From: Eledone cirrhosa
Lineage: Eukaryota
Assembly: GCA_964016885.1 (NCBI GenBank)
Contig: OZ024758.1
Span: 4,402,001 to 4,466,000 of the forward strand
Direction: 5' to 3'
Length of the DNA: 64,000 nucleotides
The notes beneath the pieces are model-generated. The model did no database searches. It had not been told where the DNA came from and was given only the letters and a program-made list of their open reading frames with translations. Every line of letters starts with the position of its first letter. The first letter of the stretch is position 1. Shown one piece after another: positions 2,827 to 36,275 of this stretch. The position numbers and the translations under genes are program-made.

Positions 2827-3437
2827 GGGGGATTGGCAGATTCGGTATAGGGTCTGAGGCCAGGCTTTCCAGCACAGAGTTTAACTTTGCCTTTCATCCT
2901 TACGGGGTCGATAAATTAAAGTACCAGTAATGTACTGAGTAATTGCTGGCCTTGTGCCAAAAGTAGGAAGAATTATATTATTAAAAGAGGGTGGTGGATT
3001 AGCAGAATCGTTAAAGCGTCGGACACCACGATTTGTGGCATAGAGTTACATCCCTTTACATTCTGAGTTCAAATACCAGCGAATTTAATTTTGCTTTTCA
3101 TCTTTACGGTGTCAATAAAATAAAGTACCAGTCACATACTGGGCTCGATTTCATCGGCTTTCCCTTCCCCAAAAATTGATAGCCTTCTGCCTATATAAGA
3201 AACCATTATTAAAAGAGGTTGGTGGATTGGCAGAATTGGTAGACAGTCGGATACCATAATTCCTGGCATAGAGTTATGGTCCTTTACATTCTGAGTTCAA
3301 ATCCAATCGAGTTAACGTTGCATTTCATCATTACAGAGTCGATAAAATAAAGTACCAATAAAGTACTAGGGTCGATTTAAAGGACTATCCTCTTCCCAGA
3401 AATTGCTGGCCTTGTGTCTATATCTGAAACCCTAATT
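2827..3437 (+). mobile_element. Three head-to-tail copies of SINE family 1 (~2827-2980, 2986-3210, 3214-3437)
   Basis: Each has a GGATTGGCAG-type A-box head, CTTTGCCTTTCATCCTTACGGGGTCGATAAA-type core and AGAAAC-ATTATT-type tail. Confidence 0.9.
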
Positions 3438-3489
3438 AAAACTGCTAGATAGAAGTTCAATCTTCTGAATGAGAACAGAGGTTATTTCA

Positions 3490-4113
3490 TGTCCAGCTAT
3501 ATCCTGTCCAGCTATACCATGTCCAGCTATACCATGTCCAGCTATACCATGTCCAGCTATACCATGTCCAACTATACCATCTCCAGCTATCTCACGTCCA
3601 GCTATATCATCTCCAGCTATCTCACGTCCAGCTATATCATCTCCAGCTATCTCACGTCCAGCTATATCATCTCCAGCTATCTCACGTCCAGCTATATCAT
3701 CTCCAGCTATATCATCTCCAGCTATCTCACGTCCAACTATACCATCTCCAGCTATCTCACGTCCAGCTATATCATCTCCAGCTATATCATCTCCAGCTAT
3801 CTCACGTCCAGCTATATCATCTCCAGCTATCTCACGTCCAGCTATACCATCTCCAGCTATCTCACGTCCAGCTATATCATCTCCAGCTATATCATCTCCA
3901 GCTATATCATCTCCAGCTATCTCACGTCCAGCTATACAATGTCCAGCTATACCATGTCCAGCTATCTCATGTCCAGCTATACCATGTCCAACTAAATCAT
4001 GTCCAGCTATCTCACGTCCAACTATCTCACGTCCAGCTATACCATGTCCAGCTATACCACGTCCAGCTATACCACGTCCAGCTATACCATGTCCAGCTAT
4101 ACCATGTCCAACT
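3490..4113. repeat. 15-bp minisatellite, ~41 units (CCAGCTATACCATGT / CCAGCTATCTCACGT / CCAGCTATATCATCT)
   Basis: Direct 15-nt periodicity; explains the PAISS/PAIPC and SSYII ORFs. Confidence 0.97.
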
Positions 4114-4283
4114 ACATCCTCAAGGGTTGGGTGTCTGTTAGAGATCTGAACTTATTTAATGCCATTGTTGGAAGCGAAACACCACATTTAGCGATACTTG
4201 TTTATTCTTTGTCAATTTCTAGAAACACATTTATATGAATTCCTAATTCCTTCAATCTTTACATAGATATGTATAGGTACTTC

Positions 4284-8744: not shown

Positions 8745-8970
8745 AGTAGTAATAATAAATTTGAAGATCCCGTTAAGGGTGAAAGCAGCGATTCTTTGCT
8801 TAAACTTTAATCTGTTATTTTAATAAATATATATATATATAAATATAGTAATAATAATAAATGTGAAGACTAAAATCCGAAGAGGGCCCCATAAGAACCC
8901 GTTATGAGTGAAAGCAGCGATTCTTTGCTTAAACTTTAATCTGTTATTTCAATAAATATATATATATATT
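8745..8970 (+). repeat. Direct duplication of a ~60-90-bp terminus-like unit ending in AATAAA(TA)n
   Basis: CCCGTTA.G.GTGAAAGCAGCGATTCTTTGCTTAAACTTTAATCTGTTATTT occurs twice, each followed by (TA)n. Confidence 0.8.
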
Positions 8971-8971
8971 T

Positions 8972-9063
8972 GTCGATCAACTTTCGTCAACTTGGACCGA
9001 GGAAGCAACGTGATATAAAGTGCGCCTGGTCCAAGAATCGAACTGACAACCTCACGATTGCTA
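8972..9063 (-). mobile_element. CORE-type SINE (tail B), internally deleted
   Basis: Shares GGACCGAGGAA, GCAACGTGA.ATAAAG and GAATCGAACT.ACAACCTCA.GAT with 33695-33910. Confidence 0.6.
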
Positions 9064-9145
9064 ATGTGGACCGAAACGCACCAGAGTACTCAATACTTAG
9101 GGTAGTAGAGTGGGTAATAAGAAAATAGTCACGACTCGTTTCCTA
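9064..9145 (-). mobile_element. Fragment of GAGTACTCAATACTTAGGG terminus family (putative Penelope pLTR)
   Basis: CGCACCAGAGTACTCAATACTTAGGGTAGTAGA.TGGGTAATA is nearly identical to 58110-58152. Confidence 0.65.
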
Positions 9146-9155
9146 TATATATATT

Positions 9156-9772
9156 GTTATACTTTGGGAGGGTCATGTTGCCAATAAGAAACACACGCAC
9201 CAGACGCTTTCACTTCAATTTATTATAAATTTTATAAATATAAATTTTATAAATTTCCGGTTGGTTGGTTGGTTGGTTCCACAACCGGATGGTTGTTCAT
9301 ATATTGTCAAAGTTCTCTCGTCACACATTCTGTCACCTCTTCAGTGACTGGGGATTCTTTTCTTTGTTTTGTGCCTCTCATTTGTTCTGTCCTAGGCCAT
9401 CTTGTTTTTTTGTGTGTTGTATGCTTAGTTTGCGCATGTGTTTCATCCGGGTGTGTGTGTGCGTGTGTTTATTTGTTTATTTATTTGTTTATGTTACTAG
9501 TTAATTGTGTGTTCTCTGTGTGTGTGTTTTCATTTTGTCCTTAATTATAAGTTGTGGTGTTGCTATTCCATTCATGTTTTCTATTTAATTTTGGTTGGAG
9601 TTCATTTATGTTTATTGCCTCTGCGATTTGTTTAAGCATTGCGTCTTTTCTGTGTGTAGATTCTATTTTGATCTCTATAACGATTAAATGAACACTGGCG
9701 AGAACTCCAAGATACTCATCAATACCCCACCAACATGCTAAAATAGAACATAAGGGAAAATTAGAAAATATA
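9156..9772 (-). mobile_element. 5'-truncated Penelope-like retroelement: GIY-YIG endonuclease C-terminus, 3' UTR with HHR (9306-9348), 5' inversion
   Basis: Minus 9672-9541 = IKIESTHRKDAMLKQIAEAININELQPKLNRKHEWNS..*; plus 9681-9772 = RLNEHWRELQD/SSIPHQHAKIEHKG (the preceding endonuclease segment, inverted); HHR GTCA-CTGAAGA-G-stemII-GAGA-GAAC-TT-TGAC; ends ATGACCCTCCCAAAGTATAACA next to (TA)n. Confidence 0.8.
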
Positions 9773-9862
9773 TATATATATGTTTAAGTGTTCTTATATA
9801 TTTGCTATATATTTATCCTTATCGAACCCTCTTTGGATGTTAGTCTTCAAATTTATTATTAT

Positions 9863-9865
<3 letters not shown>

Positions 9866-9906
<41 letters not shown>

Positions 9907-12699: not shown

Positions 12700-12754
12700 T
12701 TTTGCGAGGTTTTTGATATGAAATTATTACACAAATATGACCCTCCCCAAGTAT

Positions 12755-12758
<4 letters not shown>
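12700..12758 (+). mobile_element. 3' terminus of the Penelope-like family seen at 9156-9772
   Basis: ATATGACCCTCCCCAAGTATAACA directly followed by (TA)n. Confidence 0.7.
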
Positions 12759-12806
<48 letters not shown>

Positions 12807-13448
12807 AATATATATATGAATTGAAAGTTTGTTTCTTGCCCTCGCACAGCTGATACATAAATGTAGTTGTGCATACGTACACACATATATACATATATAT
12901 GTATGGGTTATATCGAATATTGATAATATTCGATTCGTTTGTAAACAAACGGCCCGATTAAAGCCGTGCCGATGACAAGTCGTCATCTGTTTGTTCAACA
13001 CTGGCATTGAGGAACAAAGATTTCTCTTTCTGCCAGGAGTTGCGACCGGTAGATAATATCAGTAATGGAGAGACCAATGGAAACATCGTTTCCTTTGTTC
13101 GATTTTACGAGCGAATGAGATCTGGGATCCAGTCGATCGATCAGAAAGAAAACCAATGATCAAAGAAATAAAACTAATCTTTGTTTGTATATTTCTTCAA
13201 TTTTAATTTCATTAGATTGACACCATTTTATAATTAACGTACAATTCTGAAATCACCACGCAACACCTGGATGTTCATCAACTGAAATCTATTAACAGAC
13301 AAATGTTGTTTATGTTTCATTCAATTGAGAAGAGGCAGGGGTCAGAGATGGGAGGGAGTAATCTATGATCAGCTAAACCACAGTAGAACTACGTCAATGA
13401 TGAAAGCAAAAGAACATAGCAAAATAAATCGTGTGCTGAAACAAATTT

Positions 13449-14054
13449 TGTTATATTTAGGGATGGTCATATTGTTATAATATTTCCAGAAATAATAATA
13501 GAACACAGTCACTGTAAATAAATAAATAAATAAAAGTGGCGTAGCCATTACAATACAACGAGGGGAAACAATAGTACTACTGATGAGGTCACAGATGTGT
13601 AACGAACGAACTTTGATAGACTATATGTGTGTGTATATATATATATATATGTGTGTGTGTATATATATTTTTAACCGTTGGTCAATCAATGATAAACATT
13701 CATTGCCAGATAAATTGACTATGGAAATATAAAAGATACTGGGAAAACCAACCCAAACAAAACAGTAAGTGTGTTCTATTATTTCTGGCATTAAGGGTGG
13801 TTGATTCGCACTATCGGTAGAGGGTCGGACGGCATGCTTTGCCGCATAGAGTTACGGCCCTTTATGATCCGAGTTCAAATACCGCCGAGGTTAACTTTGC
13901 CTTTCATCCTTACGGGGTCGATAAAATAATGCACCAGTCACGCACTAGGGTTAATTTAATTGAGTTTCCCCTCTCCCCCCAAAATTGTGCCTATATAAGA
14001 AACTATTATTATTTCTGGCAATATTATAACAATATGACACTCCCCAAGTATAAC
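13449..14054. mobile_element. Penelope-like element with inverted termini (~65 bp) and internal HHR (13576-13617); right terminus interrupted by a SINE
   Basis: Left TGTTATATTTAGGGATGGTCATATTGTTATAATATTTCCAGAAATAATA is the approximate reverse complement of right TATTATTTCTGGCAATATTATAACAATATGACACTCCCCAAGTATAAC; CTGATGAGGTCACAGATGTGTAACGAACGAACTTTGA is homologous to the 9306-9348 HHR. Confidence 0.7.
13791..14006 (+). mobile_element. SINE family 1 (long form) with 14-bp TSD
   Basis: TATTATTTCTGGCA at 13777-13790 and 14007-14020. Confidence 0.92.
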
Positions 14055-15264
14055 TGTATAACTATATATATATATATAAATCACTACCTCCTTATGGACA
14101 ACTGATGCTGCACTCCAGGTCCAAACACAGAAGAGCTGAAACTCCCAGTTATTGCAACCCCCTCTCTCTCTCTCTCGACACAAATGTTTTCTATCTATTT
14201 ATTCCTCATTAATTATCTTCATTCTTCAACTCTAATCTATACTTTTCTACTTCATATGTTTAATTTCAGCTGGAATTCATGGTTAGCCATTTATCTTCTC
14301 TCTATCATATTATTCTTTCTACTTTCAATTATATCTGCTAGCATTTCTATTTATTTTAAATAACTATTTGACCATCTGCGTACTTTTTCCATTTCTCAAT
14401 CTCATTTTTTCTCCATCACTTTGCCTGTCACCACCTCTCGAAATAATAACTATGTTGACTGCTTTAGAATTGCAGCTCATATATTATCGTAAGTTTCTTT
14501 TTCTTTTTCTTTTTTCCTGGGAATATATAAATGCTAGTTTCTCTATCTTTCTTTTCTACATGTTCCTTCCTATATTGCCACCACTCTCTCTCTCCCTCCC
14601 TCTCTATCTCTAATATACCTCGTTTTCTGTTCATATTATTATACATTAATCTACCTCCCAACTATACCTTAAGAACAATGAGCTCTTTACCTTTGTTGTT
14701 TTCCTTTCTAAATATTTTTGTTATAAAAGTTAATTTTCTAATTTAGCAAAAATATATATATAATTGCAATTTTGTTTTCAAATTTCCTACTCCTAACTCG
14801 CCATTTCTATTATCCTTTCGTAACGAGGCATCAATATTATATTTCTTCTTATATATTCCGTTCATCTTTACTAAAATATCTTCAATAATGTCTTATTTTC
14901 TACCGTTCTCTACAACACTCACGTGATTGATTCATTCAAAACTGAATAGTTGTAATTTATTTTAAATTGTTGTGTGTTTTTAATTATTTGTCTGAAAAGA
15001 TCGTTCGTATTCCCATATCTCCAATATGAGAGTATGAAGCAGAGATCCAACTTTGTGTTAACGTTGTAAGATGGTTAACCAGTGTATACTGCTATTCAAA
15101 ATAAAAATAATTAATTATATTATCAGTCGTTTTCTCTTGTTCGGGTACCTCAGCTAATTATACTGTAAAATCAAAACCGAATCACCAAAATAATATATTA
15201 GACAAAGTCATGATCACCAGATATGTTTCACCGATCCTCTCTATTCTTTCCTACTGGTACAAAG

Positions 15265-27448: not shown

Positions 27449-27798
27449 GCTGTATCATACGTTGCTGTATCATACGTTGCTGTATCATACGTTGCTGTAT
27501 CATACGTTGCTGTATCATACGTTGTTGTATCATACGTTGCTGTATCATACGTTGTTGTATCATACGTTGCTGTATCATACGTTGCTGTATCATACGTTGT
27601 TGTATCATACGTTGCTGTATCATACGTTTCTGTATCATACGTTGCTGTATCATACGTTTTTGTATCATACGTTGCTGTATCATACGTTGCTGTATCATAC
27701 GTTGCTGTATCATACGTTGTTGTATCATACGTTGTTGTATCATACGTTGTTGTATCATACGTTGCTGTATCATACGTTGCTGTATCATACGTTGCTGT
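27449..27798. repeat. 15-bp minisatellite (GCTGTATCATACGTT), ~23 units
   Basis: Direct periodicity; explains the AVSYV/QQRMI/LLYHT ORFs. Confidence 0.97.
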
Positions 27799-35339: not shown

Positions 35340-35377
<38 letters not shown>

Positions 35378-36275
35378 CTTATTAATATTTATTATTAGGA
35401 CAGATTAAATGGGTAAGCAAACAATTTCTGCTTTCACCCTAAAGATCTTTTCTGCTGAAATTTGGTGAATGTCTTCACTTACTACGACTACTGAGAGAGA
35501 GAGAGAGTAATATTTGTCTCTACATTCAATTCCATTTTGCATTAATAGTATGTTTTCTTTTTATTTTCCTACATGCTATTTTCAAGCCTGAGCAAATCCC
35601 TAATGTCTAGATCCGATATATAATACAGTTCTCTCAGCTGCCATATTGGGGTATCAGCTAGTTTGTTTCTGTTGTAGGACACTTTAATCTGAAGGTTAAC
35701 GTCTGGAAAAACTACGGAATACAGTTTCAAACATATAATGAACAACTTTCCAGTAAATACTGCTGGAAGCTTCCTCGTATTTGATCATTGCTGTTATCTT
35801 TACAAAGCAACGCAAGACATTTTTTCATTGATCGCCTCAATTACTTCTCCATTAGATGTGTTTATAATACCCTCAGGTTAAAAACTTGTTTAAGGCAATT
35901 TCGAGACGGCGTATCAGATATATCAGATGTAAAATCACAGATTATTACAACTTATGAAGACCACCGTGAAGAAAATAAAAATAAAATAGTTAGAGACGAG
36001 AAGAGAAGAAAGTAAGAAGAGGAGGGTTGCGGGAGAAAGACACGGGCTTTGAGAGGGGTATGAGACAAAATAAACGAAAGTGAGTGACATGAGGGGGCAG
36101 AAAAGTTTTAAATAAATGGAATATAAGGTGTAGTGCTATCTTCGCCTCACTGATTCTAAAGGAAAGATAGAATAACAAGATGATATGGCATGAACCGGTC
36201 ATGAAAACATTGACATCACAACTGAAATAACGTAGCAAGCGTAAACGATAAGTGGAACGATAATATAACATATTT
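35080..36275 (-). pseudogene. Decayed multi-LRR gene
   Basis: Minus strand in order: IIVPLIVYACYVISVVMSMFS*PVHAISSCYS (signal/LRRNT-like); CLKQVFNLRVL*; ~70 open codons SNTRKLPAVFTG..VFPDVNLQIKVSYNRNKLADTPIWQLRELYYISDLDIRDL; VVLRLGDNKIRN; CLSKNVISHSYPD. Confidence 0.6.

What the first reader, a model, noticed from the sequence alone, without database searches (positions are those of the whole stretch)
9156..9772. Penelope GIY-YIG endonuclease fragment with 5' inversion physically linked to an HHR and a (TA)n-abutting end
Seen: minus-strand peptide ...DAMLKQIAEAININELQPKLNRKHEWN* and, flipped to the plus strand next to it, RLNEHWRELQD/SSIPHQHAKIEHKG. Established: RLxEH...H..H...(R)xIxEAxxI...PxLN is the C-terminal half of the PLE GIY-YIG domain. 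The ORF track misses both pieces. This anchors the short HHR elements to a real retroelement and records a twin-priming-like inversion.
Basis: partly seen in the sequence, partly recalled or inferred. Interest (0 to 1): 0.7.

Follow-up and report, generated by a model that had tools for sequence, protein, structure and literature searches.

The report
Flipped-end fragment of Penelope retroelement
This is a broken 620-base tail piece of a very common Penelope-type jumping gene whose first 94 bases are flipped, likely because both ends of the cut chromosome started copying the same RNA; the flip is real and rare for this family, but the element type, its ribozyme motif and its inverted ends are already known.

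Summary
Window 9151-9772 is a 5'-truncated copy of a Penelope-like element (PLE) with at least 20,616 matching ends in this genome. [quoted passage not shown] The 94-base plus-strand piece lies directly upstream of the minus-strand piece in 36 of 39 other top copies, overlaps it by 3 bases and comes from the same subfamily. The family's minimal hammerhead motif is here, but with two damaging substitutions.

The family normally inserts as two head-to-head arms in (TA)n. In 42 of 44 such insertions one arm starts at site E1 and the other at E2, 60 bases on. Here the second arm starts internally, next to where the first ends. That is twin-priming geometry, and rare. Later DNA inversion is not excluded. 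The link to the window's short elements holds only for a sister family; the nearest stubs are Hydra-like. The scan had already noted the one-tail rule and similar geometry on other DNA of this genome.

The parts
9144..9154 (.). (TA)n target run at the element's 3' end
9151..9155 (-). Fixed end E1 (reference position 3982): 5-base AT overlap with the TA target, no 60-base tail
9151..9540 (-). 3' untranslated region / pseudo-LTR
9306..9348 (-). Minimal type I hammerhead motif, mutated: helix II C>G at 9334, core A14>G at 9317
9541..9678 (-). Main arm, coding part: last 45 codons of the GIY-YIG endonuclease plus stop (reference 3441 onward); holds conserved E and N, while the nearly invariant R reads K here
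9678..9679 (.). Inner inversion junction; no microhomology against the family majority
9679..9772 (+). Inverted arm: endonuclease codons RLNEH...KLEN (reference 3343-3443) with a 7-base deletion near 9714; outer end overlaps the main arm's start by 3 bases
9768..9781 (.). (TA)n target run at the outer end of the inverted arm

Best explanation
This is a dead, 5'-truncated insertion of a Neptune-type Penelope-like element in a TA repeat, and its flipped 94-base piece was likely made during insertion, when the second cut DNA end primed reverse transcription inside the same RNA (twin priming). Shown: identity, collinearity in the parent, orientation, adjacency within 3 bases, same subfamily for both pieces, TA on both sides, and the family's habit of forming two head-to-head arms from two fixed starts. 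Inferred: the endonuclease nicked both strands of the TA run; one end primed at fixed site E1 and was copied for about 540 bases; the other end, which normally primes at E2, primed at an AT-containing internal site beside the point where the first copy ended and was copied for about 100 bases; repair joined the two copies bluntly. The 7-base deletion and the ribozyme mutations are read as later decay. No function is proposed for this copy.
For: Two-armed insertion is the family norm: 48 of 76 units in a positional sample, and 42 of the 44 with two fixed ends are E1+E2 (binomial p 6e-11; hand corrections listed in the full report). In three of them (L148, L156, L157) the second arm is only the tail or part of it; in L156 and L157 it starts at 3986, right behind E1, the end-to-end geometry expected from one RNA. 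Arms of one insertion differ at 56 of 931 subfamily-diagnostic cells against 41% in background (59 pairs). Both window pieces follow one subfamily: the inverted piece mismatches 23% of diagnostic sites in the 20 copies nearest to the main arm and 96% in the 20 farthest. A second insertion, L206, has an arm ending in TA at the same internal site, with E1 at its other end and a 32-base duplication that a plain DNA flip would not make. Among 15 internal-start arms not selected for this site, 4 start within 35 bases of the main arm's 5' end (p 1e-4 to 0.15 depending on the null span). The anole Poseidon protein cuts and extends both strands of AT-rich DNA in vitro (PMC11167929).
Against: No microhomology at the inner junction and no testable target-site duplication. 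The four bases at the junction can equally be read as a remnant of the TA target. 11 of 13 internal-start inversions whose outer flank I looked at have no TA run there, so most may be repair products. The adjacency excess is weak under a narrow null (p 0.15). TA-joined internal ends are very rare: 2, 2 and 1 exact hits at three sites, and 2 of those 5 are microsatellite expansions inside a copy. A shared subfamily does not prove one RNA molecule; arms can also be homogenised later.
Confidence: 0.55

Rival explanations
1. The second end primed normally at E2, copied about 6 bases, then jumped to free RNA just upstream of where the first copy had stopped. The copy would then still obey the E1+E2 rule.
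For: The two private differences at the outer junction (reference 3437 and 3440) make the first 6 bases identical to the start of an E2 arm. The 3437 change occurs in only 2 of 103 other arms among the ten commonest patterns. Tiny E2 stubs occur on E1 copies (L050, 12 bases; L023, about 20 degenerate bases; 2 of 27). L009 has an E2 arm that jumps to 3072 while its main arm starts at 3069.
Against: It rests on one base beyond what a TA primer explains, in a copy about 4% diverged from its subfamily. L206 joins TA to the same site without either change. Most jumped arms do not land next to the main arm's end (about 3 of 15, counted by eye).
Confidence: 0.15
2. A plain 5'-truncated copy was joined to the TA run, and the 94 bases were flipped at DNA level, during repair of the insertion or later, using short AT homology between the TA run and the internal site.
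For: 28 of 76 sampled units are plain truncations, several with TA at the 5' side. The junction reads naturally as a TA remnant with 1 base of overlap. A flip gives exactly adjacent breakpoints, as seen. Most other internal inversions lack a TA flank.
Against: One breakpoint must fall exactly at the element-target junction. L206 shows arm formation at the same site with a duplication. Two-armed integration is the family's default.
Confidence: 0.22
3. Two independent insertions into one TA run, or an assembly error.
For: The region is a pile of nested insertions in TA runs. No public contig listed bridges the junction, which proves nothing either way.
Against: Adjacency within 3 bases of a 4-kb element and the shared subfamily; an independent copy with nearly the same layout (L176); no repeat inside the unit that would mislead an assembler.
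Confidence: 0.05

Closest known systems
Neptune (or Nematis) clade of endonuclease-bearing Penelope-like elements (Craig et al. 2021, PMC8557442: passages and sections 3 and 11 read)
   Same: Single ORF with RT and C-terminal GIY-YIG, CCHH, CX2-5CxxC linker, pseudo-LTR with hammerhead, (TA)n targets, heavy 5' truncation, inverted truncated copy at the 5' end, tail often at one end only.
   Different: The tail is 60 bases rather than 30-40. In this copy the inverted arm is an internal, non-overlapping piece rather than a second copy of the 3' end. Clade not confirmed by a tree.
Twin priming of LINE-1 (PMC2837659 and PMC2912911: passages read; the original 2001 paper not read)
   Same: Inverted 5' piece whose outer end is adjacent in the RNA to the start of the sense piece, with short homology to the target at the outer junction.
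   Different: No poly(A) and no discernible target-site duplication. In this PLE family the second primer normally uses a fixed second site, so an internal start is the exception.
Poseidon_Ac in vitro (Frangieh et al. 2024, PMC11167929: parts 1-3 of 4 read)
   Same: Both strands of AT-rich DNA are cut and extended; reverse transcription starts at two adjacent internal sites that define the tail.
   Different: That study saw no difference in start site between strands and reported no homology between start site and target. Here each two-ended insertion uses one of each site (42 of 44), and both sites end in a 5-base AT match to the TA target.
Minimal hammerheads of metazoan PLEs (Cervera and de la Pena 2014, PMC4209133: parts 1-2 of 4 read)
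   Same: Short helix I, 6-pair helix II, unpaired base between positions 9 and 10.1, G10.1-C11.1 pair, complementary 15.2/16.2 and no stable helix III.
   Different: The window copy has lost A14 and one helix-II pair. Rfam models do not recognise even the intact family version.

Membership tests
Endonuclease-bearing PLE (C-terminal EN) | RT and GIY-YIG endonuclease in one ORF, EN last | tested here: met
   863-aa stop-free frame in L121 and L120 with DKSG, YVDD and YIGE; RVT_1 at E 7e-4, below Pfam's cut-off
Endonuclease-bearing PLE (C-terminal EN) | GIY-YIG fold and catalytic R, H, E, N | tested here: met
   Pfam GIY-YIG E 0.001-0.006 for parent copies, below cut-off; 20 of 71 aligned homologues hit it; model pLDDT 90, top 11 Foldseek ranks are I-TevI and UvrC GIY-YIG domains, best E 2e-3; conserved columns. 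The GIY and YIG motifs themselves are missing from the window copy.
Endonuclease-bearing PLE (C-terminal EN) | CCHH motif with two cysteines between GIY and YIG | tested here: met
   C79, C84, H122, H127 invariant or nearly so
Endonuclease-bearing PLE (C-terminal EN) | Pseudo-LTR / partial tandems, inverted truncated copy, one-sided tail | tested here: met
   Read-through into the next unit in L003, L013, L146, L202; E1+E2 arms
Endonuclease-bearing PLE (C-terminal EN) | Hammerhead motif in the pseudo-LTR | tested here: met
   64 of 152 extracted copies carry one identical 39-base core; compensatory helix-II changes in a sister family. Cleavage not tested.
Neptune / Nematis | CX2-5CxxC linker upstream of GIY-YIG | tested here: met
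   C52, C57, C60 (C-x4-C-x2-C) nearly invariant
Neptune / Nematis | RT phylogeny with named references | not testable with these tools
   No homologue returned carried a clade name; the supplements of PMC8557442 were not opened
Penelope/Poseidon | No zinc-finger linker | tested here: not met
   Linker present
Hydra | CCHH absent, CxCX5C linker | tested here: not met
   CCHH present
Naiad | N-terminal endonuclease, no canonical hammerhead | tested here: not met
   EN is C-terminal
Twin-primed insertion | Inverted piece adjacent in the RNA to the sense piece | tested here: met
   3-base overlap
Twin-primed insertion | Microhomology between target and internal priming site | tested here: met
   3 exact bases, 4 of 5 with one mismatch against the family majority; weak by itself
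Twin-primed insertion | Microhomology at the inner junction | tested here: not met
   0 bases; PMC2837659 notes it is usually less than at the target site and sometimes absent
Twin-primed insertion | Target-site duplication framing both pieces | not testable with these tools
   Both flanks are TA runs; no empty site available
Twin-primed insertion | Both pieces copied from one RNA molecule | tested here: inconclusive
   Same subfamily, which is necessary but not sufficient
Active minimal hammerhead (this copy) | Intact GAAA box and helix II | tested here: not met
   GAGA and a broken pair; predicted fold differs from the intact version

The most novel reading that the evidence does not exclude
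Penelope-like elements integrate by programmed twin priming: the two cut DNA ends are assigned to two fixed start sites 60 bases apart on one RNA, which produces the inverted pseudo-LTR and the one-sided tail. This copy is a misfire in which the second enzyme landed on the first free RNA upstream of the first copy's end, and so records that both enzymes worked on one molecule.
Probability: 0.3. Interest if true: 0.6.

Novelty: new member of a known kind. Interest (0 to 1): 0.3.

Why it matters
The fragment itself is one decayed copy among more than ten thousand. Its value is as a data point on an open question named in PMC8557442 and PMC11167929: how PLEs form inverted repeats and one-sided tails. 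The strict E1+E2 pairing, the tail-only second arms and rare internal starts like this one give a concrete, countable prediction (one RNA, two primers) that the existing in vitro system could test.

Tried and rejected
Rfam: the 150 listed window-wide matches (of 414) were all microRNA models below their gathering scores, and no hammerhead model hit the window region or an intact family copy. The hammerhead call therefore rests on motif, conservation and covariation. A strict hammerhead scan found nothing in the window. A looser scan gave 5 sites against 0-1 in five shuffles, this one among them. A sequence search of the PDB with the homologue profile gave I-TevI only at E 0.12. Hotspot idea: rejected; only 2 exact hits genome-wide at this internal site, and 2 and 1 at two other AT-rich sites, of which L207 and L209 are internal microsatellite expansions and L208 is a true TA-joined end. 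A closer subfamily carrying the window's junction bases: none, the 26-base pattern is unique. Public runs: no RNA holder listed; no listed contig bridges the junction; neither is evidence. A hairpin signal behind E1/E2: folds of two copies were not better than shuffles (z 0.82 and -0.68). My first reading of the flanking stubs as Naiad was dropped after one search showed a C-terminal EN with CxCX5C. The clade could not be placed by a tree. Literature: searches pairing Penelope with 'twin priming' listed 3 papers each, none on PLE mechanism by title and abstract start; subscription papers, including Arkhipova 2006, are outside the library. Supplements of PMC8557442 and PMC11167929 were not opened and may bear on clade and tail usage.

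Full report
Observation. The window sequence and six-frame translation show the two peptides as described. The minus-strand piece runs from 9678 through a stop at 9543 to an end at 9151 that abuts a TA run. The plus-strand piece runs from 9679 to about 9772 and ends in another TA run. A profile of outside homologues ranks the three peptide pieces first to third among 3,393 pieces of the window, at consecutive profile positions; only the longest is significant alone.

Parent element. A DNA search of the own genome (3.0 Gb) gave 4,779 candidates, of which 40 were scored. 36 of the 39 other copies have the flipped piece in sense orientation directly upstream of the main piece, and 3 are truncated before or within it. 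A 36-base stretch of the 3' end matches exactly 20,616 times, control 0; two-armed insertions count twice. Near-full-length copies span about 4.05 kb. L120 and L121 keep an 863-aa stop-free frame from the DKSG motif through YVDD to the endonuclease, with the two window pieces contiguous. Homologues are abundant: 2,551 at E<=0.001. The best full-length one is 70% identical and named from Octopus vulgaris, so a cephalopod host is plausible but was not tested. The alignment conserves the CX4CxxC linker, CCHH and the R, H, E and N residues. The predicted domain (pLDDT 90) finds I-TevI and UvrC GIY-YIG domains in its top 11 ranks, with weak E-values. By the motif scheme in PMC8557442 this is Neptune or Nematis, not Poseidon, Hydra or Naiad.

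Hammerhead. In 152 extracted copies the motif has a 4-pair helix I, the CUGANGA box, one unpaired base, a 6-pair helix II, GAAA and no stable helix III; 64 share one identical 39-base core. Common variants fall in loop II, the helix III spacer and position 17. A sister family shows compensatory helix-II changes. These are the features of minimal PLE hammerheads in PMC4209133. The window copy has lost A14 and a helix-II pair, and folds differently in prediction. Rfam does not detect either version.

How the family inserts. I took the first 100 end matches on one contig as a positional sample (73 regions). The script found 77 units: 40 E1+E2, 33 one-ended and 4 with an internal second arm. By hand I moved L104b and L132 to E1+E2 (each was preceded by a short sister-family hit), moved L139 (E2+E2) and L164 (read-through+E2) to 'other two-ended', and dropped one sister-family stub in L133. 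That leaves 76 units: 42 E1+E2, 2 other two-ended, 4 internal-start and 28 plain truncations. E1 and E2 lie 60 bases apart and both end in a 5-base AT match to the target. In L148, L156 and L157 the second arm is only the tail or part of it. Arms of one insertion share subfamily sites (56 of 931 mismatches against 41% background; 59 pairs from both samples). The one-sided tail and inverted copy are described in PMC8557442 and PMC3846280, and two start sites with both-strand priming in PMC11167929. I found the pairing, before seeing that earlier scan notes report the same rule on other DNA of this genome.

This copy. It has an E1 end, and its second arm starts at reference 3443 while the main arm starts at 3441. 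Both pieces track the same subfamily, and the copy differs from that subfamily's majority by about 25 substitutions and five indels in 640 bases, within the range of its neighbours (103 collinear arms from 157 loci, known duplicates removed by hand). The inner junction is blunt. The outer junction has 3 exact bases in common with the TA run, and two private changes that also match the first 6 bases of an E2 arm. Only one other exact TA-joined end exists at this site genome-wide: L206, also with E1 at the other end and a 32-base fold-back. L176 is an independent copy with nearly the same breakpoints but an E2 end and a non-TA flank. Of 15 internal-start arms not chosen for this site, 4 lie within 35 bases of the main arm's end; the significance depends on the null (p 1e-4 to 0.15; offsets read by hand). 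Arms cut by a locus edge (L055, L056, L187) and two doubtful cases (L024, an eroded fixed end; L039) were left out.

Mechanism. The most likely history is both-strand priming at insertion, with the second primer landing internally on the same RNA, as in LINE-1 twin priming (PMC2837659 and PMC2912911, passages). A brief start at E2 followed by a jump is a close variant. A DNA-level flip of a plain truncation gives the same sequence and cannot be excluded. Public contigs did not settle the junction.

Link to the short elements. The stubs at 12.7, 13.4-13.6 and 14.0 kb share the hammerhead and end with this family, and one of their 14 fetched loci has its own endonuclease remnant: a sister PLE family. 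The stubs that flank the finding belong to another family. Near 3 of 19 loci it has RT or EN frames with a CxCX5C linker and no CCHH, which fits Hydra. The anchoring claim is therefore only partly right.

Verdict. A real, correctly read, decayed fragment of a known kind of element, with an uncommon junction that is mildly informative about mechanism. Interest 0.3. Papers seen: PMC8557442 (passages, sections 3 and 11), PMC11167929 (parts 1-3 of 4), PMC4209133 (parts 1-2 of 4), PMC3846280, PMC2837659, PMC2912911 and PMC13282606 (passages), bioRxiv 10.64898/2026.07.22.740005 (part 1 of 5). No supplements were opened. Hammerhead numbering and the effect of losing A14 are from my own knowledge, not from a call.

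Noticed in passing
G000, loci L102-L174: Two-ended insertions of this family pair one short end (E1) with one tailed end (E2) in 42 of 44 cases; both sites share the same seven bases around the break point.
   Followed up: yes
window 8745-8828, 8846-8957, 9784-9866, 35360-35450: Short head-to-head stubs of a second PLE family with its own two ends about 90 bases apart; nearby frames in L223, L227 and L229 have a C-terminal endonuclease with CxCX5C and no CCHH (Hydra-like).
   Followed up: partly
window 12734-12770, 13426-13616, 14030-14068: Stubs of a sister family sharing the hammerhead and E1 end; its helix II shows compensatory changes in L231, L232, L235 and L237.
   Followed up: partly
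window 8973-9143 (minus): SINE-like repeat with a tRNA-type B-box-like stretch (recognised from memory) directly beyond the 3' TA run; partial copies at 33.7, 33.8, 55.2 and 58.1 kb.
   Followed up: no
window 33452 (minus) and 54309 (plus): Further hammerhead-like motifs from the loose scan; 33452 has the minimal layout with one core mismatch.
   Followed up: no
L002, L176, L020, L147, L068, L119, L206: Several unrelated copies have their 5' end in reference 3412-3442, L002 at exactly the same base as the window's main arm; possibly a stall region for the reverse transcriptase.
   Followed up: no
L120, L121 (C1, about 8 kb apart): Two near-full-length copies facing each other with what looks like the same 863-aa frame; a recent duplication or one very large two-armed insertion.
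   Followed up: no
L021, L022, L029, L121, reference about 600-950: The ORF's N-terminal part holds a long Asn/Thr/His-rich low-complexity insert, reminiscent of the asparagine-rich inserts described for rotifer Penelope elements (PMC3846280).
   Followed up: no
family hammerhead: A subfamily varies the helix III spacer and position 17 together; both spacer versions keep the complementary ends needed for a dimer.
   Followed up: no
window 3483-4118 and 27449-27798: Two 15-base minisatellite arrays (42 and 23 copies).
   Followed up: no
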